The notes below the pieces were generated by a model that was not told where the DNA came from, made no database searches, and saw only the letters and a program-made list of their open reading frames with translations. A stretch of DNA of 11,110 nt from a virus (lineage: Duplodnaviria > Heunggongvirae > Uroviricota > Caudoviricetes), in the IMG/VR virus record IMGVR_UViG_3300014970_000061. The stretch is one strand, 5' to 3'. Positions 1-11,110 of this stretch are shown here, one piece after another. Within the stretch, counting starts at the first letter, position 1. Every line of letters begins with the position of its first letter. Made by a program: the position numbers and the translations under genes.

Positions 1-60
1 ATGCCATTATTATATTTAAACACTAGAGAGTGTCGTTGGTATTTAATGGGGGAAGGTGAG

Positions 61-378
61 ATGAAAAAGATAGCTGCTATATCATTAATTAGTATTTTTA
101 TTATGTCTGGTTGTGCTGTGCATAATGATGAGACAAGTATCGGTAAATTTGGTCTTGCATATAAAAGTAATATTCAGCGTAAACTCGATAATCAATACTA
201 CACCGAAGCCGAAGCTTCTTTAGCCAGGGGCAGAATATCTGGTGCAGAAAATATAGTAAAAAATGATGCAGCCCATTTCTGTGTTACTCAGGGCAAAAAA
301 ATGCAGATAGTTGACCTGAAGACAGAAGGTGCAGGATTACATGGCGTCGCTCGTCTGACATTCAAATGTGGAGAGTGA
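61..378 (+). CDS. Putative lipoprotein (flanking gene, probably outside the prophage)
   Basis: ATG at 61 preceded by GGAAGG (51-56). N-terminus MKKIAAISLISIFIMSGC has a basic n-region, hydrophobic core and lipobox-like MSGC. Lies left of the att core, AT-rich. Start at 61 preferred over the longer ORF-track start at 1. Confidence 0.55.
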   Translation: MKKIAAISLISIFIMSGCAVHNDETSIGKFGLAYKSNIQRKLDNQYYTEAEASLARGRISGAENIVKNDAAHFCVTQGKKMQIVDLKTEGAGLHGVARLTFKCGE

Positions 379-536
379 GAATATTTTTTGGTAAGCATCA
401 AACATGCGCGTTCTGGTTGTGCTTAGCCGGAACCTGTGCGAGCACGATGCCGTTACGTGAAAGGCATCGTGCTATGAAGGGAGATTCTATCGATGTGGTC
501 AATGGAAGACGGTGACCAGGGATAGGGCTTATGCAT

Positions 537-563
537 AAAAAATAAGCCCGTGTAAGGGAGATT
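537..563. other. Attachment-site core (attL of the prophage / attP-type core), aaaaaataagcccgtgtaagggagatt
   Basis: 27-bp sequence matches my recollection of the phage P2 attP core. It lies 80 bp beyond the integrase stop, where P2 places attP. Leftward sequence is not P2 ogr, consistent with a prophage-host junction. Confidence 0.55.
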
Positions 564-642
564 TAGGGTGTCACCAGTAGGGGCTTTCAACGGTACAATG
601 CGGGTTTGAGCGGCATAAATTACCACTGAAAGCCCTTAAACG

Positions 643-1656
643 TTACTCTACTGTGGACACTGTGTGGACACTCTCGGCTTCAGTACCACCTCTTAGCGGA
701 TTAAGAGAAATGGCGTCCTGAAGGTACTCTGGCGCAAAATGAGCGTAAACCATAGTTTGCTCAATCCGCGTGTGACCTAGTATCCGTTGTAGTGTGATAA
801 TACTTCCTCCATTAATCATGAAATGAGTGGCAAAGCTGTGCCTTAGTGCATGTGTGGCTTGCCCCGTTGGCAAATCCGGTTTTATTGCTTTCATTGTTCG
901 TCTGAAGCGAGGGTAATCAGCATCAGGGAATAAAAAACCTCGTTTGTTATCCGCGATCATTTTGGCAACAGCCTCTGAGATCGGGACGGTGCGTGGTTTG
1001 TTTGTTTTCGTTTTAACAAACGTGACGCGGTTATGGATGATATTTTCTGCTTTCAAACGAGCTGCTTCTCCCCAACGTGCTCCTGTACTCAGGCAAAGAA
1101 TCGCAATCTTTTTATTGTCGCCGTCAAGTGCTGCAAGCAGTAAGGCAATTTCTTCCTGTGTGAGATAGCCTGTTTCTGGTTTTTCCTCCTTAAGCCTCTT
1201 TGTCCCTCTGATAGGGTGCTCACCAAAGAATAACTCCGCTTCAATCAGGGCTGTAAACATGCCGCTAATACATGTTAAATCACGATTGATACTCGAAGGT
1301 TTAATACCCTGACTTCTTCGGGTGGCGCAGTACTGGCTGATAAGGGATTTCGTGATTTGAAATGCGCATGGGTCATTCGTTATTTTTGTGAAGATTTCAA
1401 TTTTTCCAAGATTAGATTTCCCATGCTCTTCGTGTTTACCCTTTAAATCCCACCAGATCTGTGTCAGTTCCGACAGACGTCGTTTGTCTGTTGGTTTTGA
1501 TAGCCATTCTTTATTGTGGTGGTTGTACAACGTGTATTTTTCGAAAGCGACAGCTTCGCTTTTCTTATCAAACTTCCTACGGATGCGTTTTCCGTTACGT
1601 CCAGTAGGGCGGATGTCCACTTCATATCGACCATCATCGAGTTTTTTGATTGCCAT
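643..1656 (-). CDS. int: Tyrosine recombinase, P2-type integrase (337 aa)
   Basis: ORF 643..1656 with ATG at 1656-1654 and GGAGGG 7 nt upstream. C-terminal catalytic region has HALRHSFATHF, LGH and MVYAH (tyrosine nucleophile region), typical of phage integrases. Position next to the att core. Confidence 0.95.
   Translation of the reverse strand: MAIKKLDDGRYEVDIRPTGRNGKRIRRKFDKKSEAVAFEKYTLYNHHNKEWLSKPTDKRRLSELTQIWWDLKGKHEEHGKSNLGKIEIFTKITNDPCAFQITKSLISQYCATRRSQGIKPSSINRDLTCISGMFTALIEAELFFGEHPIRGTKRLKEEKPETGYLTQEEIALLLAALDGDNKKIAILCLSTGARWGEAARLKAENIIHNRVTFVKTKTNKPRTVPISEAVAKMIADNKRGFLFPDADYPRFRRTMKAIKPDLPTGQATHALRHSFATHFMINGGSIITLQRILGHTRIEQTMVYAHFAPEYLQDAISLNPLRGGTEAESVHTVSTVE
652..671. promoter_or_regulatory. 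Direct repeat TGTGGACAC x2 at 11-bp spacing (candidate integrase arm-type binding sites)
   Basis: tgtggacac at 652-660 and 663-671, one helical turn apart, inside the 3' end of int on the int-proximal arm. A one-mismatch copy tgtggtca lies at 494-501 on the other side of the core. Confidence 0.4.
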
Positions 1657-1771
1657 CAGAAAACCCTCCGAGTGGTACTTTTTTTTGCTACTACTAATCG
1701 CTTTTTTCGTGGTGGCTGAAATTTAGCCACCAATAGTAGGCACTTGTGATGAATATATTCACGATAAATTG

Positions 1772-2071
1772 TTAACCAGTCTTTTGACCGGAGTGGGGCG
1801 ACGTTGTTTCGTTTTGCCCAAAGTGTGCGAGAGCGGGCGCAATTTGCCCGGCTTCTGGAGCTACCTGATCAGTCATGAACCACAAAGTATATTTAGTAAA
1901 TCTGGGATGTTGTAAGACCTTCATTATGGCTTCAACTCCAGCGTTTTTTGACCGGCTCTCATAGCTCGAAAGTGAGCTGTAGGCTACACCAGTTAATTCA
2001 CTGAATTCTTTACGGTTTAACCTTTCAGATTCACGGATTAGCTTCAACTTCTCCGAAACGTCTATTGACAT
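1772..2071 (-). CDS. C: Immunity repressor C (99 aa)
   Basis: Internal ATG at 2071-2069 gives exactly 99 aa (MSIDVSEKLKLIRESERLNRKEFSELTGVAYSS... contains a helix-turn-helix-like segment). GGAG 5 nt upstream. Divergent from cox and upstream of int as in P2. The ORF-track start at 2143 is rejected. Confidence 0.85.
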   Translation of the reverse strand: MSIDVSEKLKLIRESERLNRKEFSELTGVAYSSLSSYESRSKNAGVEAIMKVLQHPRFTKYTLWFMTDQVAPEAGQIAPALAHFGQNETTSPHSGQKTG

Positions 2072-2192
2072 AATTACTCCGATTGCGTAATTTCTTGCTG
2101 ATAGTGTGAAATATTGTGCTTCTGGAGTTATCCTTTTAGGCAATAATTAGCCATTAGGAGCCATTAGAAGCACTAAGGGAGAATCGTAGCAG
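2072..2192. promoter_or_regulatory. Lysis-lysogeny switch region between C and cox (expected face-to-face Pe/Pc promoters and operators)
   Basis: 121-bp divergent intergenic region. TTGACA at 2065-2070 followed 17 bp later by TAATTT (2088-2093), a possible rightward early promoter. Tandem 10-bp direct repeat tagccattag/gagccattag at 2148-2167. Exact promoter and operator positions are not resolved. Confidence 0.45.
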
Positions 2193-2468
2193 ATGAATAG
2201 ACAGCTTGTAAGCGTGACTGATGCCGTGCCTTATCAGGAGTTTGCAAAACTCATTGGTAAAACTCCAAGAGCTGTAAGGGGCATGATTGAGAAAGGGAAA
2301 TTACCAGTTATTGAGATTACTGACCCTCAGTCAGTATCGGGGCGTGCTGGTGAATATTGGGTATACCTTCCGGCATGGAATAACGGACTAAAACTGGCTT
2401 ATGAAAGCCGTCCTAAAGAGATTCGTGACGGCTGGTTGATGTGGTTAGGTCTCGGTGAACCACGTTAA
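2193..2468 (+). CDS. cox: Cox: excisionase / repressor of the lysogenic promoter (91 aa)
   Basis: ATG at 2193 with AAGGGAGA upstream. 91 aa, first gene of the rightward early operon, directly opposite C, as in P2. Confidence 0.85.
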   Translation: MNRQLVSVTDAVPYQEFAKLIGKTPRAVRGMIEKGKLPVIEITDPQSVSGRAGEYWVYLPAWNNGLKLAYESRPKEIRDGWLMWLGLGEPR

Positions 2469-2478
2469 GGAGAACCGT

Positions 2479-2649
2479 ATGAATGAGCCTCGTTGTATTG
2501 CTCAGTTATTGCGTAACGAAAGCCCCAGGGCGATTGACTTCACCATCACCCACGGTAAGGGGCGTAAGGGAATCATTATCCGCACCAAAAAACAGAGTCC
2601 GTTAAAAAAGGCTCTGACCTTTCTGAAAAGCCGGAGGGTCTGGAAATGA
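2479..2649 (+). CDS. Small early-operon protein (P2 orf78-like position), 56 aa
   Basis: ATG at 2479 with AAGGAG 6 nt upstream. The ORF-track start at 2455 is a GTG. Stop overlaps the B start (ATGA at 2646-2649). Confidence 0.55.
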   Translation: MNEPRCIAQLLRNESPRAIDFTITHGKGRKGIIIRTKKQSPLKKALTFLKSRRVWK

Positions 2650-3146
2650 CAGTGATGACGCTCAATCTCGTTGAAAAACAGCCAGCAGCTATGCGCCGGA
2701 TAATTGGTAAGCATCTGGCCGTCCCTCGCTGGCAGGAGACATGCGATTATTATAATCAGATGATGGAACGCGAACGGCTAACGGTTTGCTTTCATGCGCA
2801 GTTAAAACAGCGTCACGCAACGATGCGTTTTGAAGAAATGAACGACGTCGAACGTGAACGGCTGGTTTGTGCAATTGATGAATTGCGTGGGGCATTCTCA
2901 AAACGCCGTCAGGTTGGTGCAAGTGAGTATGCATATATTAGCTTTTTAACTGTCAGTCAGCGCCGTACTTTATTTATGCACGCACGACTGACAGAAAAAG
3001 AATTTAACCAGCCATACTGGCGAATTAATGAAGAATCATGTTACTGGCGTGATGCTTTATTCCGTGCATTACGTGAATTATTCAGCCTGTTTGAGTATGC
3101 ACCGACAATTCTGACGTCGGTAAAACCAGAGCAATATCTGCATTAA
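2646..3146 (+). CDS. B: Replication protein B (helicase-loader-like), 166 aa
   Basis: ATG at 2646 with GGAGGG 7 nt upstream. 166 aa, matching the P2 B length and position between cox and A. Confidence 0.8.
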   Translation: MTVMTLNLVEKQPAAMRRIIGKHLAVPRWQETCDYYNQMMERERLTVCFHAQLKQRHATMRFEEMNDVERERLVCAIDELRGAFSKRRQVGASEYAYISFLTVSQRRTLFMHARLTEKEFNQPYWRINEESCYWRDALFRALRELFSLFEYAPTILTSVKPEQYLH

Positions 3147-3209
3147 ATAATTAACCAGAGTTTTTAACGCACTTAATCGTGCGGGGCTTCTTTTTGCCTG
3201 GAGAAAGTC

Positions 3210-3434
3210 ATGCATACAGTTTCTGAAAACAAGTGCGGTAAATACGCATTACTGCTGCAACAGGCCAGAGCCGAAGCACAGGCCGACGCAGCGACACGCT
3301 TTTCTTCTCATCTTGACGCCATGATTCGCCATATCACAAAGGCGGAGTTATCCCGCGTGGAGATAGTCGAGCTGCTCAGTCAGGAGTCGGAAAAATTTCA
3401 CAATATCGGATTGTCTCGCGGGGAGGTGCTTTGA
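3210..3434 (+). CDS. Small early-operon protein (P2 orf80-like), 74 aa
   Basis: ATG at 3210 with GGAGA upstream. Stop overlaps the next start (TGATG). Confidence 0.6.
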
Positions 3435-3733
3435 TGTCCTGTTCTCATTCAGTTGTATTACTGAATAACGCCTTAAAAATCGCCGTTATGAAAAATGGCG
3501 ATTTGTCTCTTATTCAACTTGGTCTTGATAAAGAAAAACGCGACATAACTGAATCTGTTATCGCGATTTATCAGAATGAATTAAACCTCCTGTCTGATGT
3601 GGTCAATTTACTTGTTAAACGCGCTGTATTCCACAAGCAAATTTCCTCAGTGGATGAACTGACAAAATTAACGACAGAACTTGCCAGTTATTGCGCTGAT
3701 GTATCCAGGAAACTTAACGATAAAAGGAGCTGA
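3434..3733 (+). CDS. Small early-operon protein (P2 orf81-like), 99 aa from the ATG
   Basis: ATG at 3434 overlapping the upstream stop, with GGGAGGTG 6 nt upstream. The ORF-track start at 3431 is TTG. Confidence 0.6.
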   Translation: MSCSHSVVLLNNALKIAVMKNGDLSLIQLGLDKEKRDITESVIAIYQNELNLLSDVVNLLVKRAVFHKQISSVDELTKLTTELASYCADVSRKLNDKRS

Positions 3734-3735
3734 TA

Positions 3736-3960
3736 ATGCCGGACAACGTAGATTTTATTCAGGAACAACAGGCTGAATTACTGGAGCGCCAGATTAACGC
3801 GGCAAGGGTAAAACATTGCGGTGCTTCTGCGCTGGTTTGCGAAGAGTGTGACGCGCCAATACCTGCTGCCCGTCGTGCGGCTTACCCGTCAGCCACGCGT
3901 TGTGTTTCCTGTCAGTCAGTCTTTGAAGCAAAAAACAAACATTACCGGAGAACGGCATGA
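3736..3960 (+). CDS. TraR/DksA-family C4 zinc-finger protein (P2 orf82-like), 74 aa
   Basis: CEEC ... CVSC four-cysteine motif (CxxC-x17-CxxC) characteristic of TraR/DksA zinc fingers. AAGGAG RBS. Stop overlaps the next start (ATGA at 3957-3960). Confidence 0.7.
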   Translation: MPDNVDFIQEQQAELLERQINAARVKHCGASALVCEECDAPIPAARRAAYPSATRCVSCQSVFEAKNKHYRRTA

Positions 3961-4232
3961 GTATTCGTATTGAAATTGGCGAACGTTATGTCGTTACCAG
4001 TGACAGCTTTCAGTTTATTCTCCACGAGAAAAAGAGAGCGGAAAGCGGTAAAAACGCCGGTCAGGAATGGCTGGCGGTGGTTGGTTATTACCCGAAATTA
4101 AGCCAGCTCGTTTCCGGCCTGATGCATCACGATATTCTGACCGGAAGCGCAAAGTCTTTTGCTGATTTAAACGCGCAGGTTGAGCAACTCAGCAAGCGTT
4201 GTTCAGAGGCTTTTGGCTCATATGGCCGTTAA
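3957..4232 (+). CDS. Small early-operon protein (P2 orf83-like), 91 aa
   Basis: ATG at 3957, translationally coupled to the upstream gene. 3' end overlaps the A start by 11 nt. Confidence 0.6.
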   Translation: MSIRIEIGERYVVTSDSFQFILHEKKRAESGKNAGQEWLAVVGYYPKLSQLVSGLMHHDILTGSAKSFADLNAQVEQLSKRCSEAFGSYGR

Positions 4233-6507
4233 AGCCTCCGGGCGTTTTGTCCCTCCGTCAGCATTTGCCGCAGGCACCGGTAAGACGTTTACCGGTGCTT
4301 ATGCGTGGAACGCGCCACGCGAGGCTGTCGGGCGCGAAAGACCCCTTACACGTGACGAGATGCGTCAGGTGCAAGGTGTTTTATCCACGATTAACCGCCT
4401 GCCTTACTTTTTGCGCTCGCTGTTTACTTCACGCTATGACTACATCCGGCGCAATAAAAGCCTGGTGCACGGGTTTTATTTCCTCACATCCACTTTTCAG
4501 CGTCGTTTATGGCCGCGCATTGAGCGTGTGAATCAGCGCCATGAAATGAACACCGACGCGTCGTTGCTGTTTCTGGCAGAGCGCGACCAGTATGCGCGCC
4601 TGCCGGGGATGAATGACAAGGAGCTGAAAAAGTTTGCCGCCCGAATCTCATCGCAGCTTTTCATGATGTATGAGGAACTCTGCGATGCCTGGGTGGATGC
4701 GCATGGCGAAAAAGAATCGCTGTTTACGGATGAGGCGCAGGCTCACCTGTATGGTCATGTTGCTGGCGCTGCACGTGCTTTCAATATTTCCCCGCTTTAC
4801 TGGAGAAAATACCGTAAAGGACAGATGACCACGAGGCAGGCATATTCTGCCATTGCCCGTCTGTTTAACGATGAGTGGTGGACTCATCAGCTTAAAGGCC
4901 AGCGTATGCGCTGGCATGAAGCGTTACTGATAGCTGTCGGGGAGGTTAATAAAGACCGCTCACCTTATGCCAGTAAACACGCCATTCGTGATGTGCGTGC
5001 ACGCCGCCAGGCAAATCTGGAATTTCTTAAATCGTGTGACCTTGAAAACAGGGAAACCGGCGAGCGCATCGACCTTATCAGTAAGGTGATGGGCAGTATT
5101 TCTAATCCTGAAATTCGCCGGATGGAGCTGATGAACACCATTGCCGGTATTGAGCGTTACGCTGCCGCAGAGGGTGATGTGGGGATGTTTATCACGCTGA
5201 CCGCGCCGTCAAAGTATCACCCGACACGTCAGGTCGGAAAAGGCGAAAGTAAAACCGTCCAGCTAAATCACGGCTGGAACGATGAGGCATTTAATCCAAA
5301 GGATGCGCAGCGTTATCTCTGCCGTATCTGGAGCCTGATGCGCACGGCATTCAAGGATAATGATTTACAGGTCTACGGTTTGCGTGTCGTCGAGCCACAC
5401 CACGACGGAACGCCGCACTGGCATATGATGCTTTTTTGTAATCCACGCCAGCGTAACCAGATTATCGAAATCATGCGTCGCTATGCGCTCAAAGAGGATG
5501 GTGACGAAAGAGGAGCCGCGCGAAACCGTTTTCAGGCAAAGCACCTTAACCGGGGCGGTGCTGCGGGATATATCGCGAAATACATTTCAAAAAATATCGA
5601 CGGCTATGCACTGGATGGTCAGCTCGATAACGATACCGGTAAGCCGCTTAAAGATACTGCCGCGGCTGTTACCGCATGGGCGTCAACGTGGCGCATCCCG
5701 CAATTTAAAACGGTTGGACTGCCGACAATGGGGGCTTACCGTGAACTACGCAAATTGCCTCGCGGCGTCAGTATTGCTGATGAGTTTGACGAACGCGTCG
5801 AGGCTGCTCGCGCTGCCGCAGACAGTGGTGATTTTGCGTTGTATATCAGCGCGCAGGGTGGGGCAAATGTCCCGCGCGATTGTCAGACTGTCAGGGTTGC
5901 CCGTAGCCCGTCGGATGACGTTAACGAGTACGAGGAAGAAGTCGAGAGAGTGGTCGGCATTTACGCGCCGCATCTCGGCGCGCGTCATATTCATATCACC
6001 AGAACGACGGACTGGCGCATTGTGCCGAAAGTTCCGGTCGTTGAGCCTTTGACTTTAAAAAGCGGCATCGCCGCGCCTCGGAGTCCTGTCAATAACTGTG
6101 GAAAGCTCACCGGCAGTGATACTTCGTTACCGGCTCCCACACCTTATGAACATGCCGCAGCCGTGCTTAATCTGGTTGATGACGGTGTTATCGAATGGAA
6201 TGAGCCAGAGGTCGTGAGGGCGCTCAGAGGTGCATTAAAACACGAACTGAGAACACCAAATCGTCAGCAGAGAAACGGAAGCCCGTTAAAACCACATGAA
6301 ATAGCGCCATCGGCCAGACTGACCCGGTCGGAACGAACGCAAATTACCCGTATCCGCGTTGACCTTGCTCAGAACGGTATCAGGCCGCAGCGATGGGAGC
6401 TTGAGGCGCTGGCGCGTGGCGCGACCGTAAATTATGACGGGAAAAAATTCACGTATCCGGTCGCTGATGAGTGGCCGGGATTCTCAACAGTAATGGAGTG
6501 GACATAA
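4222..6507 (+). CDS. A: Replication initiator A, HUH-superfamily rolling-circle endonuclease (761 aa)
   Basis: Internal ATG at 4222 gives 761 aa, matching P2 A. HUH metal-binding motif in PHWHMMLF. Paired catalytic tyrosines in YIAKYISK, as in phiX174 gpA (YVAKYVNK). In P2 the origin lies within A, but I could not pinpoint it here. Confidence 0.9.
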   Translation: MAVKASGRFVPPSAFAAGTGKTFTGAYAWNAPREAVGRERPLTRDEMRQVQGVLSTINRLPYFLRSLFTSRYDYIRRNKSLVHGFYFLTSTFQRRLWPRIERVNQRHEMNTDASLLFLAERDQYARLPGMNDKELKKFAARISSQLFMMYEELCDAWVDAHGEKESLFTDEAQAHLYGHVAGAARAFNISPLYWRKYRKGQMTTRQAYSAIARLFNDEWWTHQLKGQRMRWHEALLIAVGEVNKDRSPYASKHAIRDVRARRQANLEFLKSCDLENRETGERIDLISKVMGSISNPEIRRMELMNTIAGIERYAAAEGDVGMFITLTAPSKYHPTRQVGKGESKTVQLNHGWNDEAFNPKDAQRYLCRIWSLMRTAFKDNDLQVYGLRVVEPHHDGTPHWHMMLFCNPRQRNQIIEIMRRYALKEDGDERGAARNRFQAKHLNRGGAAGYIAKYISKNIDGYALDGQLDNDTGKPLKDTAAAVTAWASTWRIPQFKTVGLPTMGAYRELRKLPRGVSIADEFDERVEAARAAADSGDFALYISAQGGANVPRDCQTVRVARSPSDDVNEYEEEVERVVGIYAPHLGARHIHITRTTDWRIVPKVPVVEPLTLKSGIAAPRSPVNNCGKLTGSDTSLPAPTPYEHAAAVLNLVDDGVIEWNEPEVVRALRGALKHELRTPNRQQRNGSPLKPHEIAPSARLTRSERTQITRIRVDLAQNGIRPQRWELEALARGATVNYDGKKFTYPVADEWPGFSTVMEWT

Positions 6508-6959
6508 TGGCAAAAATTCACGAGGTAAAGCTGCACGCAAAATATTTCGACCTTGTGCTGGAAGGAAAGAAACGTGCAGAGTTCCGGAAAAATGACCGTA
6601 ATTATGAGCGCGGGGACACGTTGATTTTGTATGAATGGGTGCAGGGTGTGTATACGGGGCGAAATGTTGAAGCCCGGATAACAGATGTTACTGACCTGTC
6701 AGACTGGCTGGAAGATTATGTCTTGCTAAGTATTGAGCTGCTTAATACAGGCGCATATGAGATTGTGAACTGGAAAGAACTTAGTGAGCGTGGCCTGGTA
6801 TTCAGAATTAATCATGAAATTATGCATCAGCTCGGCCTTGCTGTTATGTATGAACCAGAGACGGGGATGTCTGGCGGGGCAATGGTTGCCACGGATGGAG
6901 CATGGAACTATTCAGATGAACAGATGGAGCGTGCACAGCAAAACGGGTGGCTTGGATAA
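6507..6959 (+). CDS. DUF3850/ASCH-like (PUA-fold) protein (P2 orf91-like position), 150 aa
   Basis: ATG at 6507 overlapping the A stop (TAATG). N-terminal KIHEVKLHAKYFDLVLEGKKRAEFRKNDRNYERGDTLILYEW resembles the DUF3850/ASCH motif (RKNDR). Domain call is from memory. Confidence 0.65.
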   Translation: MAKIHEVKLHAKYFDLVLEGKKRAEFRKNDRNYERGDTLILYEWVQGVYTGRNVEARITDVTDLSDWLEDYVLLSIELLNTGAYEIVNWKELSERGLVFRINHEIMHQLGLAVMYEPETGMSGGAMVATDGAWNYSDEQMERAQQNGWLG

Positions 6960-7165
6960 TGCACAGAATACCAGGCGAGATACCGCACCATAAAACTAAA
7001 AATATCAAGCTGATGGCTATTGTTCAGCGTTTACAGCGGATTATGGTCAACGAAAATCTGACGCCCGATGAGCTGGTCGGGTGTGCCGAAATAGTCCGGG
7101 ATAATTACGGGCGGTTTAACCATATCGGTCAGTCCAGAGTTGCGCCACCACAACGCAGACGATAG
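6959..7165 (+). CDS. Small hypothetical protein, 68 aa, coupled to the upstream gene
   Basis: ATG at 6959 overlapping the upstream stop (TAATG). Basic C-terminus (PPQRRR). No recognisable domain. Last ORF before the AT-rich cargo. Confidence 0.4.
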   Translation: MHRIPGEIPHHKTKNIKLMAIVQRLQRIMVNENLTPDELVGCAEIVRDNYGRFNHIGQSRVAPPQRRR

Positions 7166-7339
7166 AGAACGCCGCCAGTCGTGAAACTTGTTTTCAGGGC
7201 TGGCGGGGTTGAATAACGAGTGTCGCGAGGCGTTAGTTTGAGCTTACAATTAAACCTATTGAAAATTAATGAGAAGTCAATTTTATCTTTTTCTCGTTAA
7301 AGATGGCCACAACTACTAAAACGTGAGAATATCAAGACT

Positions 7340-7407
7340 TGGCAAAATCTAGCTTTTCCCAACGGGGTGTTTCGCTATAATACGCGGTCGGTTTTTAGGA
7401 GGGGTCA
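7340..7407 (+). promoter_or_regulatory. Candidate sigma70 promoter and RBS for the methyltransferase gene
   Basis: Perfect -10 hexamer TATAAT at 7376-7381 with a weak -35 (cttttc region). AGGAGG at 7397-7402, 5 nt before the ATG at 7408. Confidence 0.35.
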
Positions 7408-8346
7408 ATGCCAACTGTAGTTTCACTTTTTTCTGGATGTGGTGGTTCTGATGCGGGAGTTTTGAACGCAGGTTTCAATGTGCTTATGGCAAATGATATT
7501 TTGCCTTACGCAAGGGACGTTTACTTAGAAAACCATCCTGAAACTGACTACATTTTGGGCGATATCTCAGGGCTCCAGTCGTTCCCTTCTGCTGAGTTGC
7601 TCATCGGATGCTATCCTTGCCAAGGATTTAGTCAAGGTGGGGCAAGGAAGGCAGATAGAAAGATTAATACACTATATTTAGAGTTTGCCCGTGCTTTGAG
7701 TAAAATTAAGCCAAAAGCATTCATTGTAGAGAATGTCTCTGGTATGGTAAGGCGTAACTTTGAGCATTTATTAAAGGATCAATTCAAAGTTTTCGAAGAA
7801 GCAGGTTATACAGTAAGCTCGCAAATTCTGAATGCGTCCCATTATGGGGTATCCCAAGATAGGAAGCGAATCTTTATCGTAGGAATACGAAAGGACTACG
7901 GTATTACATACAAATTTCCAAAACCAACACATGGTGATGGTTTGACACCATATTCCACAATTCGTGATGCTATTGGGCATATGCCTGTTTGGCCTGTTGG
8001 CGAGTTTTATGACGCCGATTTTCATTGGTATTATCTATCGCGAAACCGTAGGCAAGATTGGGATCAGATATCTAAAACAATTGTTGCAAATCCTAGACAT
8101 ATGCCTCTACATCCAATAAGTCCAACATTAGAAAAATTGGGACCTGATAAGTGGCAATTTACTTCGGATGCACCAGCTCGTAGGTTTAGCTATCGAGAGG
8201 CTGCTATTTTACAAGGTTTTGGGGATTTAATTTTCCCAGAAACTGAACGGGCTTCTATTAATATGAAATATACTGTGGTAGGTAATGCAGTACCGCCTCC
8301 ATTGTTTGAGGCGGTTGCTAGAAACCTTCCAGATTTATGGGATTAA
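7408..8346 (+). CDS. DNA (cytosine-5)-methyltransferase, 312 aa
   Basis: Canonical C5-MTase motifs in order: motif I LFSGCGG (AdoMet binding), motif IV GCYPCQGFSQGG (catalytic Cys in PCQ), motif VI ENV (FIVENVSGM), motif VIII QDRKR, C-terminal VVGNAVPPPLFEAV. Small size implies a short target-recognition domain. Confidence 0.92.
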   Translation: MPTVVSLFSGCGGSDAGVLNAGFNVLMANDILPYARDVYLENHPETDYILGDISGLQSFPSAELLIGCYPCQGFSQGGARKADRKINTLYLEFARALSKIKPKAFIVENVSGMVRRNFEHLLKDQFKVFEEAGYTVSSQILNASHYGVSQDRKRIFIVGIRKDYGITYKFPKPTHGDGLTPYSTIRDAIGHMPVWPVGEFYDADFHWYYLSRNRRQDWDQISKTIVANPRHMPLHPISPTLEKLGPDKWQFTSDAPARRFSYREAAILQGFGDLIFPETERASINMKYTVVGNAVPPPLFEAVARNLPDLWD

Positions 8347-9368
8347 GCAGCGATCGCGCTGGAAGGATCAAGGATGATATCTAGATAGCTAATATTTTGA
8401 CTGTGATCAATATTATCAGATGCTCTGGTTAAATTGATTAATCTTAGGCGATCAACAAAAATAGCATCGCCTAACTTATTTTTATGCGCCCACTCACCAT
8501 CTATCCATCGTAGATCTTGAGGTAAGAAATAATAAGTTGCCCATCGGTGAGCTACGGGGAATTTACTGTAGAGCATCGCAGGTGAGGCCTCAAGCTGCTT
8601 CGCTTCCCACTCTTCTTGAGAACAGCCACACTGAACAAAAGAAATAGGGATGGCATCTCGTTGATCTCCCATTGGATGCCAGGCAATTATGTCAAGGCCT
8701 CCGTCACCACTATTTCCTCGACTGAAATCTCGTTCTTTGAAGTTCGCTGTGCAACGGATATCGGAAGCAATACTCTTAAATTTATTATATAGAGTTCCAG
8801 TGTAAGGGGCCGCTTGACCACCAGAAGCCCAGCATGCTTTTATTATGCTACCGCTAGGCATTAGGCTTTCAAAAATAGGTAAACTAATTAGTTCAAAACT
8901 GCGCGTTATCTCTCTTCTGCTCATTATGTTGACATATTTTATGTTAGCACAGATTAGTAAAGCTAAATATAGTCTTTCTAAATGTTCCAGTGGCTTTTCT
9001 GATATATCACGTAACTCTACAGTATCGTTGTCTTCTGATAAAGTAAAAGGGTAACTATCCCCAAATAAATCAATGCGTTGTCGTATGAAGCCTATCGCAT
9101 AGCTCCACTTTCTGTCAGTATATGCTCGACTAACACTTCGTTTTGTTCTCTTGCGTACAGGCGTATCATTTTCATCATCAACATCATAAACGCCCTCTTC
9201 TTCTGCTTCATCTGTTTCAGCTAGTACTGCTTCGGGTTGAGCTTGCAGTGTGCTATATAGGTCTCCTCGACTGAATGACCTGTCGATATTAGTTAAGGCC
9301 AATATCTCAATATAATCAGCCCATAAATAAGGCTCATTAGAAGGCATTGAATCAAGATTTGTAATCAT
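8343..9368 (-). CDS. Uncharacterized protein with a possible Mrr-like PD-(D/E)xK nuclease signature, about 341 aa (start uncertain)
   Basis: Long minus-strand ORF whose stop overlaps the MTase stop (TTAA at 8343-8346). GDGGLDIIAW followed about 20 aa later by FVQCGCSQEEWEAK resembles the GDGGID ... (V/I)QxK core of Mrr-type nucleases, but with Gly where the Lys is expected. Acidic then basic linker (ETDEAEEEGVYDVDDENDTP / VRKRTKRSVSR). In-frame starts at 9452, 9380 and 9368; 9368 chosen because GGAGG lies 12 nt upstream and it sits 4 nt after the upstream stop. Confidence 0.7.
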   Translation of the reverse strand: MITNLDSMPSNEPYLWADYIEILALTNIDRSFSRGDLYSTLQAQPEAVLAETDEAEEEGVYDVDDENDTPVRKRTKRSVSRAYTDRKWSYAIGFIRQRIDLFGDSYPFTLSEDNDTVELRDISEKPLEHLERLYLALLICANIKYVNIMSRREITRSFELISLPIFESLMPSGSIIKACWASGGQAAPYTGTLYNKFKSIASDIRCTANFKERDFSRGNSGDGGLDIIAWHPMGDQRDAIPISFVQCGCSQEEWEAKQLEASPAMLYSKFPVAHRWATYYFLPQDLRWIDGEWAHKNKLGDAIFVDRLRLINLTRASDNIDHSQNISYLDIILDPSSAIAA

Positions 9369-9372
9369 AATC

Positions 9373-10446
9373 TCAATCATCCTCCCTTTTGCTTCTGATC
9401 TGATTTCTAATATTTTTTGACATCTCAAAAATTTCAGATGCAGCCTCTTCATGCTCTAATGTTAATTCTTTAGCTTTAAGTAGCATATCCCAAACTACTC
9501 TTAATTTAACACTAGCTGCGTTTAGTGCTTTATCTAATGCTTCTCTTTCTCCGCTGGTATATAGATATGCTTCATCCAAGTTTGAACTTTTCATGAGAAT
9601 TTCAATTGCTTCGGGTTTCTCAACCACTGCTGCAATATCTTTTATTCTTCGAGACTCACCGATGATGGTTCTACCTTGTTGGTCAGGCACAAAAAACCAA
9701 GAGAATAAACGCTTAAGGTTTTCTTCATTTAAATTTGGGTCTAAAAAATCCTTTTTATCCTGTAGACCTAACCAGTTTGTGATTTTTGAATATCCCAAAG
9801 CTGTGGTTATATATGAAAATTCCACGTCAGAAGCCTTCATGGGTAAATTAAAAAACTCATGGTCATGCGCGACTTCATATAAGTTCAGTGCAGTGAGAAG
9901 TGTTGCAACATAATGTGGTTTACTCCCAATCTCACGAGCCAGATTTTTTAATACTATCTCTTTAGGCTCATGTGAATAAAAAGTATCACATAACTCTTTA
10001 AGGTATTTGGCTTTAGATAATGAGTCCCATTCTTTGACCCCAGTTATATGACGATAACCGATATATCTCAGTACATCCTCTCGGTTTTCATAAATGATGC
10101 AGGGAAGCTTCTTAGGTTTATTGGTAGTATCATCAATGATTTCTTGCACACCTTTAAGTTTTCTTTTTGGAGGAAGCAGATCTCCATTGAGCAACTTTAC
10201 AGCAGCTAAGCGTCTGTTTCCCTCAACCACGATGTAGTTTCCATTGCTTTTTACTGCCAATAAAGGTTCTCCAGGAAAGTAACCTTGCTGACCGATTGAT
10301 AGCATTAGATCGTGGACACTTTCGTCATCTAACATTTCCTCAATGACTGTTGCAGCGTTACTGGCATCATTGAGACGAAAGAAACGTGGGTTTTTAGGGT
10401 CAAAATCAAGCTTATTTGTCTCAATTTCTACGATTTTGTTATCCAT
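9373..10446 (-). CDS. ParB/Srx-superfamily (ParB N-terminal domain) protein, 357 aa from the ATG at 10446
   Basis: N-terminus MDNKIVEIETNKLDFDPKNPRFF ... LMLSIGQQGYFPGEPLLAVKSNGNYIVVEGNRRLAAVKLL parallels the ParB N-terminal domain (I..L..P.NPR box and GxRRxxA arginine patch). GAGG 5 nt upstream of the ATG at 10446. Longer ORF-track start at 10578 lacks an RBS. C-terminal 250 aa has no motif I recognise. Confidence 0.8.
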   Translation of the reverse strand: MDNKIVEIETNKLDFDPKNPRFFRLNDASNAATVIEEMLDDESVHDLMLSIGQQGYFPGEPLLAVKSNGNYIVVEGNRRLAAVKLLNGDLLPPKRKLKGVQEIIDDTTNKPKKLPCIIYENREDVLRYIGYRHITGVKEWDSLSKAKYLKELCDTFYSHEPKEIVLKNLAREIGSKPHYVATLLTALNLYEVAHDHEFFNLPMKASDVEFSYITTALGYSKITNWLGLQDKKDFLDPNLNEENLKRLFSWFFVPDQQGRTIIGESRRIKDIAAVVEKPEAIEILMKSSNLDEAYLYTSGEREALDKALNAASVKLRVVWDMLLKAKELTLEHEEAASEIFEMSKNIRNQIRSKREDD

Positions 10447-10673
10447 CTTAACCTCATGGGATGATGTAAATATCTTTTGGGGGATGCTTGATAAAACATC
10501 CATATTTGATCGTTTGCAGCGCATTTGATACATCGAAGTGTACAAAAATGCTGGGCATAACTCTGCATTAAAATGCATTCACATTCAAAGAACTATTTTC
10601 TCGTTGGACATTTAGCCCAAGAGAGTTTGGACGGCTTTTGGAATTGCATCAAAACCGACCCATGAAGCGGGCG

Positions 10674-10692
10674 GGCGAGGCGGGGAAAGCAC
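10674..10692. other. Phage cohesive-end site (cos), ggcgaggcggggaaagcac
   Basis: 19-nt sequence matches my recollection of the P2 cohesive end. GC-rich, and located between the last right-arm gene and the first late gene, as expected in a prophage. Confidence 0.65.
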
Positions 10693-10834
10693 TGCGCGCT
10701 GGCGGTGGTGCTGATTTTATTTTTTCAGCGTCTGAGCGCGTCGTGATGGCGTTTAGTCGGCCTGCCGGGGCGTTGGTGTGTCTGCGGGGTGTTTTGTACA
10801 GTGGCGAACGTGTGAGGGCGTGATGACGGGGTGT

Positions 10835-10856
10835 AAAAAAGCCGCCCGCAGGCGGC
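10835..10856 (-). terminator. Rho-independent terminator for the minus-strand late gene
   Basis: On the minus strand: GCCGCC-tgcg-GGCGGC hairpin (plus 10841-10856) followed by TTTTTT (complement of the A6 run at 10835-10840), a few nt downstream of the stop at 10862. Confidence 0.55.
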
Positions 10857-10861
10857 GATGT

Positions 10862-11110
10862 TCAGCCGTTGTCAGTGTCCAGTGAGTAGTTTTTAAATCG
10901 GATGACCTCCTGACCGAGCCAGCCGTTTATCTCGCGGATCCTGTCCTGTAACGGGATAAGCTCATTGCGGACAAAGACCTTTGCTACTTTCTCAATATCG
11001 CCCAGCGACCCGACGTTCTCCGGTTTGCCGCCCATCTGCGTATTACCGTGAAGGAGATCGGTGAGTAACATCGATGGAGATCGGTTCGTGTCACTTTCAC
11101 AGAACCGTTT
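10862..11110 (-). CDS. 3' end of a late gene, probably capsid portal protein Q (partial; 5' end beyond the window)
   Basis: Minus-strand ORF ending at 10862, about 170 bp from cos, presumably open to the window edge. In P2 the first gene after cos is Q on the opposite strand. Identity is by synteny only. Confidence 0.5.
   Translation of the reverse strand, partial: KRFCESDTNRSPSMLLTDLLHGNTQMGGKPENVGSLGDIEKVAKVFVRNELIPLQDRIREINGWLGQEVIRFKNYSLDTDNG

What the first reader, a model, noticed from the sequence alone, without database searches (positions are those of the whole stretch)
7166..10673. Compositional discontinuity marks the cargo boundaries
By eye, the P2 backbone on both sides (early operon up to about 7165; cos region from about 10640) is GC-balanced to GC-rich, whereas the MTase and both minus-strand genes are markedly AT-rich with different codon usage. 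That indicates recent horizontal acquisition into the hotspot from a lower-GC donor. The left boundary coincides with an inverted repeat (ccgccag ... ctggcgg, 7172..7206), and the right boundary lies within about 100 bp of cos.
Basis: seen in the sequence. Interest (0 to 1): 0.45.

Follow-up and report, generated by a model that had tools for sequence, protein, structure and literature searches.

The report
AT-rich defence cargo in P2 hotspot
The low-GC block is real: it is the variable cargo slot next to the packaging site of a P2-like (WPhi-type) E. coli prophage, a slot already described in the literature, and here it holds a methylase, a nuclease-like gene and a ParB-like gene that travel together in many bacteria.

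Summary
The compositional step is real. GC is 0.39 across 7239-10644, against 0.53 in replication gene A and 0.56 at cos/Q. GC3 is 0.30 against 0.48, and synonymous codon usage differs at p about 1e-19. The best-fitting GC change points (7232 and 10654) agree with homology breakpoints against 17 P2-like relatives (7236-7238 and 10636-10646).

- The early backbone (1-3800) is itself only 0.44 GC.
- The inverted repeat is a stable hairpin about 30 bp inside a conserved orf91-orfX module, not at the junction.
- A "lower-GC donor" is not needed. All 13 alternative cargos at this hotspot are 0.33-0.42 GC, and the homologous cassette is AT-richer than its flanks in 46 of 46 other bacterial loci.

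The cargo is phage WPhi's mth-orf96-orf98. It combines an M.HaeIII-like C5 methylase, a winged-helix plus PD-(D/E)XK nuclease-fold protein, and a ParB/Srx protein. This synteny holds in 52 of 77 loci across phyla, so it is probably a restriction-modification-like defence. The nearest validated system is PD-lambda-5.

The segment moved recently between P2 backbones by recombination in conserved flanks. The hotspot and its variability are already published, so interest is low to moderate.

The parts
4222..6507 (+). Replication gene A. This is the GC-rich backbone to the left of the hotspot (GC 0.535, GC3 0.546).
   Evidence: WPhi and P2 annotation. Composition. Five relatives lose homology at 6474-6484, the outermost left edge of the hotspot.
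6504..6959 (+). orf91 (DUF3850/ASCH plus DUF7415). It is an optional, GC-normal module inside the hotspot (GC 0.463).
   Evidence: Pfam E = 1e-17 and 2e-14. It is present in about 10 of 17 relatives and absent in those that break at about 6480. P2 diverges within it at 6727 and L-413C at 7000.
6959..7165 (+). Small ORF of 68 aa (orfX) downstream of orf91. No family match.
   Evidence: Annotated in 9W, YpM_46, SMS-3-5 and RM9872. No Pfam, NCBIfam or PADLOC hit.
7168..7210 (+). Outer stem AACGCCGCCAG/CTGGCGGgGTT, inner stem TGAAA/TTTCA. No U-tract follows it.
   Evidence: Folding gives a centroid of -28.8 kcal/mol and z = -3.45. It is conserved in 9 relatives with different cargos, is a perfect 11-bp stem in S164, and has a G-U-compatible change in YpM_50. 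The terminator scan did not call it.
7232..7238 (.). Left boundary of the AT-rich cargo, in both composition and homology.
   Evidence: The maximum-likelihood GC change point is 7232. Seven relatives share sequence up to ...GCGAGGCGTTAG and diverge at 7236-7238.
7239..7407 (+). AT-rich leader of mth, with a perfect -10 hexamer TATAAT (7376-7381) and an AGGAGG ribosome-binding site (7397-7402). Promoter function is inferred.
   Evidence: Read from the sequence. The region is co-transferred with mth: the RM9872-type match starts at 7244.
7408..8346 (+). mth, a C5 cytosine DNA methyltransferase that resembles M.HaeIII over its full length.
   Evidence: Pfam PF00145 E = 1e-61. PDB 1dct M.HaeIII E = 1.6e-48 over residues 4-307. 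WPhi annotates it as 'mth'.
8345..8346 (.). Internal mosaic junction between the methylase module and the two minus-strand genes.
   Evidence: O145 RM9872 and phage 12474III match up to 8345 and then stop. Between these variants Mth is 98% identical at the protein level, but orf96 only 27% and orf98 only 33%.
8343..9368 (-). orf96, 341 aa from Met29 of the 369-aa ORF. It has an N-terminal winged helix and a C-terminal PD-(D/E)XK restriction-endonuclease fold. It belongs to no Pfam family.
9373..10446 (-). orf98, 357 aa from Met45 of the 401-aa ORF. It has a ParB/Srx N-terminal domain with an invariant E-G-N-R-R motif, followed by an all-helical C-terminal part.
10447..10563 (-). Upstream region of the orf98-orf96 operon. 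It presumably holds the promoter (inferred).
   Evidence: It lies between the corrected orf98 start and the conserved TGCAT cluster. No function has been tested.
10564..10578 (.). Two TGCAT motifs (10564-10568 and 10574-10578) at a fixed distance of about 100-110 bp from the cos nick. They are probably part of the packaging signal.
   Evidence: They occupy the same columns in 11 P2-like phages with unrelated cargos. Satellite P4 has TGCAT at -124, -111, -101 and -29 from its nick.
10636..10654 (.). Right boundary in composition and homology. It includes the cos-proximal TGCAT motif at 10645-10649.
   Evidence: Homology with 14 relatives resumes at 10636-10646. The GC change point is 10654.
10674..10692 (.). 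The 19-nt cohesive end GGCGAGGCGGGGAAAGCAC. The cos nick falls between 10673 and 10674.
   Evidence: The linear WPhi record ends at window 10673 and starts at 10674. P2 cosR maps to 10674-10692.
10862..11036 (-). The 3' part of portal gene Q, cut off at 11036.
   Evidence: Mapped from the SMS-3-5 annotation. Every P2-like match stops at 11036.

Best explanation
The window is a WPhi-type P2-like prophage of E. coli. The AT-rich block (about 7239-10644) is the current occupant of the known variable hotspot between replication gene A and cos/portal gene Q.

The occupant is a self-contained three-gene cassette:
- a C5 cytosine methylase (mth, plus strand);
- convergent with it, an operon that encodes a ParB/Srx-domain protein (orf98);
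- followed in that operon by a winged-helix plus PD-(D/E)XK nuclease-fold protein (orf96).

The most likely function is a restriction-modification-like anti-phage system. The methylase marks host and prophage DNA. The orf98-orf96 pair attacks unmarked incoming DNA. The ParB/Srx protein would act as a nucleotide-dependent DNA sensor or clamp that licenses the nuclease. This mechanism is inferred, not shown.

The low GC is a standing property of this cassette and of hotspot cargos in general. It is not a fingerprint of a particular low-GC donor.

The cassette moves between P2-like backbones by homologous recombination in the conserved sequences on either side: gene A / orf91 / hairpin on the left, and the cos region on the right. 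That is why the compositional edges coincide with homology breakpoints. Inside the cassette, a further recombination point at the convergent gene ends (8345/8346) allows the restriction pair to be swapped against a nearly constant methylase.
For: - Identity and position of the locus.
- Composition and codon usage.
- Breakpoints against 17 relatives.
- Cargo prevalence: at least 99% identical in 104 of 5426 complete E. coli genomes, always chromosomal and single copy. A further 36 genomes carry mth at 93% identity with diverged partner genes.
- Divergence steps: against WPhi, 27-36 differences per kb to the left of 6795, 1.3 per kb from 6796 to 10673, and 67 per kb to the right of 10734. Against the SMS-3-5 prophage, 20-30 per kb to the left of 6507 and about 0 from 6508 to 11036.
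- Conserved synteny ParB-N, then orf96, then a convergent C5 methylase: found in Methylomonas, Oryzomicrobium and a Morganella P2-like prophage. It holds in 52 of 77 loci spanning Proteobacteria, Acidobacteriota, Chloroflexota, Bacteroidota and others. The ParB gene lies directly upstream in 72 of 77.
- Folds.
- Methylase family.
- GC of the cassette against its flanks, and GC of other hotspot cargos.
- Precedents: PD-lambda-5 (ParB/HEPN plus methyltransferase) is an experimentally validated defence (PMC9519451). ParB plus HEPN plus methylase operons were predicted in PMC3710099. The hotspot is described in PMC9122126.
Against: - No experiment here shows defence, methylation specificity or nuclease activity.
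- orf96 lacks a canonical (D/E)xK on the third strand (it has Q246-C-G). The lysine would have to come from K257 on the next helix, so catalytic competence is uncertain.
- orf96 has no hit in PADLOC, Pfam, NCBIfam or PDB by sequence.
- About a quarter of the distant loci show no adjacent C5 methylase by tblastn, or have it 1.2-3.4 kb away.
- The site-avoidance test for GGCC is only weakly suggestive (observed/expected 0.73, against 0.85 in the flanks, and similar to GATC, GTAC and TGCA).
- The recombination mechanism is inferred from divergence steps in two pairwise comparisons.
Confidence: 0.7

Rival explanations
1. One reading: the block was recently acquired into the hotspot from a donor organism with a lower genomic GC content, and has not yet drifted toward the host's composition.
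For: GC of 0.39 and GC3 of 0.30, against about 0.53 in gene A. Sharp change points at 7232 and 10654. Very low divergence between copies.
Against: All 13 other cargos at this hotspot have GC 0.33-0.415, whatever genes they carry. The homologous cassette is AT-richer than its flanks in 46 of 46 loci, with hosts from 0.35 to 0.69 GC, and follows host GC with r = 0.73. The closest relatives (82-89% protein identity) are in Citrobacter and Morganella, and the Morganella copy sits in a P2-like prophage. No match was found on plasmids.
Confidence: 0.12
2. The three genes are not one system. On this reading mth is an orphan methylase that protects phage DNA or regulates the phage. orf98-orf96 is then either an independent, methylation-blind two-gene defence or a partition/maintenance function. 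Rousset et al. mention 'putative plasmid partitioning systems' in about a quarter of P2-like hotspots.
For: mth and the orf98-orf96 pair are separate, convergent transcription units. They recombine independently at 8345/8346: Mth is 98% identical while the partners are 27-33% identical. Some distant loci lack an adjacent C5 methylase. The partitioning remark is in PMC9122126.
Against: The three-gene synteny is conserved in 52 of 77 loci across several phyla, including non-phage chromosomal sites. There is no ParA partner in the window, and orf98's C-terminal half is all-helical with no specific fold match. orf96 has a restriction-endonuclease fold.
Confidence: 0.15
3. orf96 (with orf98) is a modification-dependent, Type IV-like nuclease that targets modified phage DNA. 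It would resemble MspJI/AspBHI or GmrSD, and mth would be only a neighbour.
Confidence: 0.05

Closest known systems
P2 'TO region', also called P2 defence hotspot #1 (between gpA and cos/gpQ; holds tin and old in P2). Sources: Rousset et al. 2022 (PMC9122126) and Vassallo et al. 2022 (PMC9519451). They cite Nilsson et al. 2004 and Odegrip et al. 2006.
   Same: Same position and the same conserved flanks. The content varies between otherwise collinear phages, sits next to cos, and is AT-rich (P2 tin-old GC 0.342).
   Different: This window holds the WPhi-type cargo (mth, orf96, orf98) rather than tin/old. An optional GC-normal sub-module (orf91-orfX-hairpin) lies between gene A and the AT-rich cassette.
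Phage WPhi mth-orf96-orf98 (AY135739 / NC_005056)
   Same: 99.4% nucleotide identity over 6300-10673. Gene order is the same.
   Different: The backbones differ by 2.7-3.6% to the left of 6795 and by 6.7% to the right of cos. The WPhi record has seven single-base insertions at 6779-7033 that split orf91. WPhi annotates the over-long ORFs.
PD-lambda-5 (ParB/HEPN protein plus methyltransferase; validated anti-phage system, Vassallo 2022)
   Same: A ParB/Srx N-domain protein paired with a DNA methyltransferase. The authors describe PD-lambda-5 as a compacted prophage version of an RM+Abi system. PADLOC PD-Lambda-5_A profiles hit orf98 at E = 3e-24.
   Different: Only the ParB domain matches (profile positions 1-158 of about 440). 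No HEPN domain was detected. An extra winged-helix plus PD-(D/E)XK gene is present. The system has three genes instead of two.
ParB plus HEPN (MAE_28990 family) plus DNA methylase operons, predicted by Anantharaman et al. 2013 (PMC3710099)
   Same: The logic is the same: a three-component operon of ParB, an effector and a methylase.
   Different: The effector here has a restriction-endonuclease fold with a winged helix. It is not HEPN.
Classical Type II R-M systems such as HaeIII/BspRI (GGCC), and winged-helix plus PD-(D/E)XK enzymes such as SdaI
   Same: An M.HaeIII-like C5 methylase lies next to a restriction-endonuclease-fold protein in convergent arrangement.
   Different: A conserved third gene of the ParB/Srx family is translationally coupled upstream of the nuclease gene. 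The active-site motif is not canonical. The specificity is unknown.
ParB-DUF262 NTPase-nuclease defences (GmrSD/BrxU, SspE, Menshen NsnA; PMC12065111, PMC4619093)
   Same: The general paradigm matches: a ParB-superfamily nucleotide-binding sensor coupled to a nuclease effector.
   Different: The ParB domain here is closer to the canonical ParB_N/Srx type than to DUF262. The nuclease is a separate PD-(D/E)XK protein, not a fused HNH/DUF1524 domain. The system is accompanied by a methylase.

Membership tests
P2-like phage hotspot #1 (TO region) | Lies between replication gene A and the cos site / portal gene Q of a P2-like genome. | tested here: met
   Gene A is at 4222-6507, the cos nick at 10673/4 and Q from 10862.
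P2-like phage hotspot #1 (TO region) | Content differs between otherwise collinear relatives, with conserved flanks. | tested here: met
   Thirteen different cargos were seen. Left breakpoints fall at 6474-6484, 6727, 7000 and 7236-7238, and right breakpoints at 10636-10646.
P2-like phage hotspot #1 (TO region) | The cargo gives anti-phage or another accessory function and is dispensable for the phage. | not testable with these tools
   There is only the comparative inference that relatives lacking it are viable phages.
Type II restriction-modification system | A DNA methyltransferase with complete catalytic motifs. | tested here: met
   PF00145 matches end to end at E = 1e-61. M.HaeIII matches residues 4-307 at E = 1.6e-48.
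Type II restriction-modification system | An adjacent endonuclease with a catalytic PD-(D/E)XK (or other nuclease) site. | tested here: inconclusive
Type II restriction-modification system | The nuclease and methylase share one recognition sequence, and methylation protects against cleavage. | not testable with these tools
   Site avoidance in 47 cassettes was only weakly suggestive (GGCC observed/expected 0.73).
Type II restriction-modification system | Two components are sufficient (R and M). | tested here: not met
   A ParB/Srx gene lies immediately upstream of the nuclease gene in 72 of 77 loci.
PD-lambda-5 | Protein A has an N-terminal ParB-like domain. | tested here: met
   Twenty-four PD-Lambda-5_A profiles match, the best at E = 3e-24, over orf98 residues 45-195 of the long ORF.
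PD-lambda-5 | Protein A carries a C-terminal HEPN domain ('ParB/HEPN'). | tested here: not met
PD-lambda-5 | Two-gene system with an adjacent methyltransferase. | tested here: inconclusive
   A methylase is adjacent, but the system has three genes.
ParABS partition / ParB CTPase clamps | ParB/Srx N-domain with an arginine-rich nucleotide-binding motif. | tested here: met
ParABS partition / ParB CTPase clamps | A ParA partner gene, and an HTH domain that binds parS. | tested here: not met
   No ParA-like ORF lies in or next to the cassette. Sequence matches to partition ParB profiles and structures cover only the N-terminal domain (TIGR00180 residues 51-131, below its cut-off; PDB 4umk). The C-terminal half is all-helical with only generic helical matches.
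GmrSD / SspE / BrxU (DUF262 plus DUF1524) | A DUF262-type ParB domain fused or paired with an HNH/DUF1524 nuclease. | tested here: not met
   GmrSD_N hits are weak and found in only 6 of 50 homologues (best E = 0.009). The nuclease partner is PD-(D/E)XK, not HNH.

The most novel reading that the evidence does not exclude
The ParB/Srx protein, the winged-helix/PD-(D/E)XK protein and the C5 methylase together form a distinct, widespread and so far uncharacterised class of restriction-modification-like immunity. It occurs from Enterobacterales prophages to Methylomonas, Bacteroidota and Chloroflexota.

In this reading a ParB-type nucleotide-dependent DNA clamp or sensor is an obligatory partner that licenses a restriction-fold nuclease. 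The restriction pair diversifies or is swapped (27-33% identity) against an almost fixed methylase (98%).

A secondary novel reading concerns the phased TGCAT repeats about 100-125 bp from the nick. They are shared by P2-like phages and satellite P4 across an otherwise unrelated spacer of fixed length. They may be the terminase recognition element that sets the inner limit of the hotspot.
Probability: 0.4. Interest if true: 0.55.

Novelty: already known. Interest (0 to 1): 0.25.

Why it matters
The finding as stated, an AT-rich block bounded by the P2 backbone, re-describes a published hotspot. It adds little beyond exact coordinates.

Three points from the follow-up are more useful.
- It warns against reading low GC as a donor signature. 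This cassette is AT-shifted by about 0.1 relative to every host examined.
- It gives base-level anatomy of the hotspot: nested breakpoints, a conserved hairpin module, an internal swap point at the convergent gene ends, and packaging-signal motifs that limit where cargo can reach.
- It flags the WPhi cargo as a conserved three-gene ParB-nuclease-methylase cassette with no experimental characterisation, related to but distinct from PD-lambda-5. It occurs in about 2% of complete E. coli genomes, and about 2.6% when variants are counted.

Tried and rejected
- Intrinsic-terminator reading of the inverted repeat. The consensus scan does not call it and no U-tract follows it. It is kept only as a non-canonical 3' hairpin or module boundary.
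- Promoter and terminator scans of 6300-11110. Counts were not above shuffled expectation.
- Rfam scan of the whole window. There were no matches.
- Sequence-level identification of orf96. Pfam, NCBIfam, PADLOC and PDB sequence searches all came back empty. Only the structure prediction gave a fold.
- Recognition-site inference from palindrome avoidance. CCGG is absent from the window's cargo, but this is idiosyncratic: only 1 of 47 cassettes lacks it. GGCC is the most depleted 4-bp palindrome across the cassettes, but only marginally (0.73, against 0.75-0.77 for GATC, GTAC and TGCA). The test is inconclusive.
- A HEPN domain in orf98, as in PD-lambda-5. None was found.
- A plasmid origin for the cargo. 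No plasmid match was found.
- cos ends as the exact recombination point. The window/WPhi divergence step lies between 10618 and 10734, which is compatible with cos. In the SMS-3-5 comparison, however, identity continues through cos to 11036, so cos is not a universal breakpoint.
- Primary papers on the TO region (Nilsson 2004, Odegrip 2006). They are not held in the library, so they are known here only through citations in PMC9122126 and PMC9519451.

Full report
**What the window is**

Megablast against phage records shows a P2-like genome (genus Peduovirus).
- Window 2478-10673 is 98.2% identical to phage WPhi.
- P2 itself matches 536-1901, 2215-6727 and 10645-10692.
- From the WPhi and P2 annotations the layout is: int 643-1656 (-), an immunity region, the early operon up to replication gene A (4222-6507), orf91 (6504-6959), a small ORF (6959-7165), mth (7408-8346, +), orf96 and orf98 (minus strand), the cos nick at 10673/10674 with the 19-nt cohesive end at 10674-10692, and the 3' end of portal gene Q from 10862.
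- Window 1-535 is not phage sequence, so this is an integrated prophage read from attL.

**Check of the observation**

The compositional step is real.
- GC is 0.397 for 7166-10673, against 0.476 for 1-7165 and 0.560 for 10645-11110.
- The three cargo genes have GC3 of 0.31 each. Gene A has 0.546.
- Pooled synonymous codon usage differs between cargo and backbone (chi2 182.6, df 41, p = 9e-20).
- A two-segment likelihood scan places the GC change points at 7232 (0.522 to 0.394) and 10654 (0.386 to 0.566).

The backbone is not uniformly GC-balanced.
- Region 1-3800 is only 0.438 GC.
- There is a comparable internal step at 3780.

The inverted repeat is at the stated coordinates.
- As a 7-bp repeat it is not statistically special.
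- It is, however, the core of a longer hairpin at 7168-7210 (outer stem 11 bp with one mismatch, inner stem 5 bp). That hairpin is much more stable than shuffled sequence (z = -3.45).
- No U-tract follows it, and the terminator scan did not call it.

**Where the boundaries really are**

I fetched the hotspot from 17 relatives and aligned each to the window.

Left breakpoints are nested.
- 6474-6484, the end of gene A (five phages).
- 6727 (P2).
- 7000 (L-413C).
- 7236-7238 (P22H4, P24A7b, YpM_46, YpM_50, 9W and S164, plus a relocated copy in 720R8).
- 8345, inside the cassette (O145 RM9872 prophage and 12474III).

At 7236-7238 all relatives share ...CTGGCGGGGTTGAAYAACGAG..GCGAGGCGTTAG and then become unrelated. 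Three consequences follow.
- The hairpin lies about 30 bp inside a conserved, GC-normal module (orf91-orfX-hairpin, GC about 0.47-0.49).
- That module is itself optional within the hotspot.
- The compositional step at 7232 marks the junction between this module and the AT-rich cassette.

Right breakpoints cluster at 10636-10646, which is 28-37 bp from the nick.

**The right flank is more than the 19-nt end**

I made an ungapped alignment anchored on cos, using 11 P2-like phages with unrelated cargos.
- It shows TGCAT motifs in fixed columns inside otherwise non-homologous DNA. In the window they are at 10564-10568, 10574-10578 and 10645-10649.
- Several relatives have a third upstream copy about 10 bp further left.
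- Satellite P4 shares only cos with P2. It has TGCAT at -124, -111, -101 and -29 from its nick. The window has them at -110, -100 and -29.
- The spacer between the clusters varies in sequence but not in length.

I infer that these motifs belong to the packaging signal. The ATG of the 401-aa ORF at 10578 is part of the palindromic ATGCAT motif. The real orf98 start is therefore Met45 (10446), in agreement with the 357-aa homologues.

**Is low GC a donor signature?**

The data argue against that reading.
- The 13 alternative cargos at this hotspot (tin/old, cdt, Fic, DUF4209 and others) all have GC 0.33-0.415.
- The same three-gene cassette was recovered from 77 loci in other genomes.
- In the 46 of those loci with a full cassette, adequate flanks and non-redundant sequence, the cassette is AT-richer than its surroundings in all 46 (mean -0.095, Wilcoxon p = 3.5e-9).
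- Cassette GC follows host GC (r = 0.73) over hosts ranging from 0.35 to 0.69.

Low GC is thus a persistent property of this mobile cassette and of hotspot cargo in general. It cannot identify a donor.

**Evidence for recent movement**

Divergence changes sharply along the window.
- Against WPhi it drops from 27-36 differences per kb (2478-6795) to 1.3 per kb (6796-10673). It rises to 67 per kb to the right of 10734.
- Against the SMS-3-5 prophage, which has a different integrase and a different attachment site next to cpxP, the step is at about 6507. Near-identity then continues through cos to 11036.

The shared segment therefore has different end points in different comparisons, and they lie in conserved flanking sequence. 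That pattern is what homologous recombination predicts, rather than site-specific insertion at the compositional edges.

The cassette is at least 99% identical in 104 of 5426 complete E. coli genomes. It is always single copy and chromosomal, and it is absent from plasmids.

**What the cargo is**

- **mth.** A complete C5 cytosine methyltransferase (PF00145, E = 1e-61). Its closest solved relative over its full length is M.HaeIII.
- **Operon structure.** The orf96 start lies 4 nt after the orf98 stop, so the two genes form an operon.

**Are the three genes one system?**

The order ParB-N gene, then orf96 homologue, then convergent C5 methylase recurs widely.
- It occurs in the Methylomonas sp. 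DH-1 chromosome (next to a vsr gene), in Oryzomicrobium terrae and in a Morganella P2-like prophage.
- Overall it holds in 52 of 77 loci from several phyla. The ParB gene lies directly upstream in 72 of 77.

Within E. coli P2-like prophages there are at least three variants with the same architecture. Mth is 98% and 84% identical between them, but orf96 only 27% and 52%, and orf98 only 33% and 65%. A DNA-level junction sits exactly at the convergent gene ends (8345/8346).

I read this as a restriction-modification-like system whose restriction pair is swapped or diversifies against a constant methylase. This is an inference.

**Comparison with known systems**

- The hotspot is published. Rousset et al. 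2022 found 1,650 gene arrangements between gpA and gpQ and speculated on cos-linked recombination. Vassallo et al. 2022 placed four new defence systems there.
- The nearest validated system is PD-lambda-5, listed as 'ParB/HEPN, methyltransferase' and described as a compacted RM+Abi system.
- orf98 matches PD-Lambda-5_A profiles only over the ParB domain. No HEPN domain was found. A separate restriction-endonuclease-fold gene is present. The cassette is therefore a relative in design, not a member.
- Anantharaman et al. 2013 predicted ParB plus HEPN plus methylase operons. That is the same logic with a different effector.
- I found no paper in the held library that describes this three-gene cassette.

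**Verdict**

The phenomenon is already known, and the 'lower-GC donor' reading is not supported. The more interesting residue is the uncharacterised ParB-nuclease-methylase cassette and the phased TGCAT elements shared with P4.

Noticed in passing
window 10564-10578 and 10645-10649; P4 locus L098 302-329 and 397-401: Phased TGCAT motifs lie at fixed distances from the cos nick (about -110, -100 and -29, with a further copy at about -124 in P4 and several phages). They are conserved across 11 P2-like phages with unrelated cargos and in satellite P4. A spacer of fixed length but unrelated sequence separates them. They are probably terminase recognition elements of cos.
   Followed up: partly
window 11037-11110: Every P2-like match stops at 11036, inside portal gene Q. 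The last 74 bases are a multicopy sequence found on 770 plasmids at varied loci. This looks like the end of a mobile element inserted in Q, so the prophage is probably defective. The element was not identified.
   Followed up: partly
window 6779-7033 against WPhi locus L001: The WPhi record has seven single-base insertions relative to the window, all inside orf91 and the small ORF downstream of it. They split orf91 into WPhi's 'orf91' and 'orf92'. Other relatives agree with the window, so these are probably errors in the 2003 record.
   Followed up: partly
window 8343-9452 and 9373-10578 (minus strand): The mechanical ORFs of 369 and 401 aa are over-extended. Homologues start at Met29 (9368) and Met45 (10446). 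With those starts the two genes no longer overlap by 80 bp and are instead separated by 4 nt.
   Followed up: yes
window 1-3800: There is a second compositional step at 3780 (GC 0.438 to 0.530) inside the phage backbone. The repressor region 1902-2214 matches neither P2 nor WPhi, which suggests a heteroimmune mosaic.
   Followed up: partly
window 1-535: This is flanking non-phage DNA to the left of attL. ORF 1-378 is also AT-rich (GC 0.378, GC3 0.286). It was not identified.
   Followed up: no
window 7239-10644: CCGG is completely absent from the 3.4-kb cargo, against 34 copies in the whole window. Only 1 of 47 homologous cassettes lacks CCGG, so this is not a family trait.
   Followed up: yes
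locus L013 (Yersinia phage L-413C) 913-1905: L-413C keeps only a ParB-like gene of the RM9872 type next to cos, without the methylase or the nuclease. It appears to be a deletion remnant of the cassette.
   Followed up: partly
locus L012 (phage 720R8) 1588-1845: The orfX-hairpin segment (window 6977-7236) reappears downstream of other cargo genes, directly abutting a minus-strand gene. The hairpin module therefore behaves as a portable junction element between convergent units.
   Followed up: partly
hit H86, E. coli JXZ9A32M (NZ_CP193883.1): One genome carries the otherwise identical cassette interrupted by an IS5 element.
   Followed up: no
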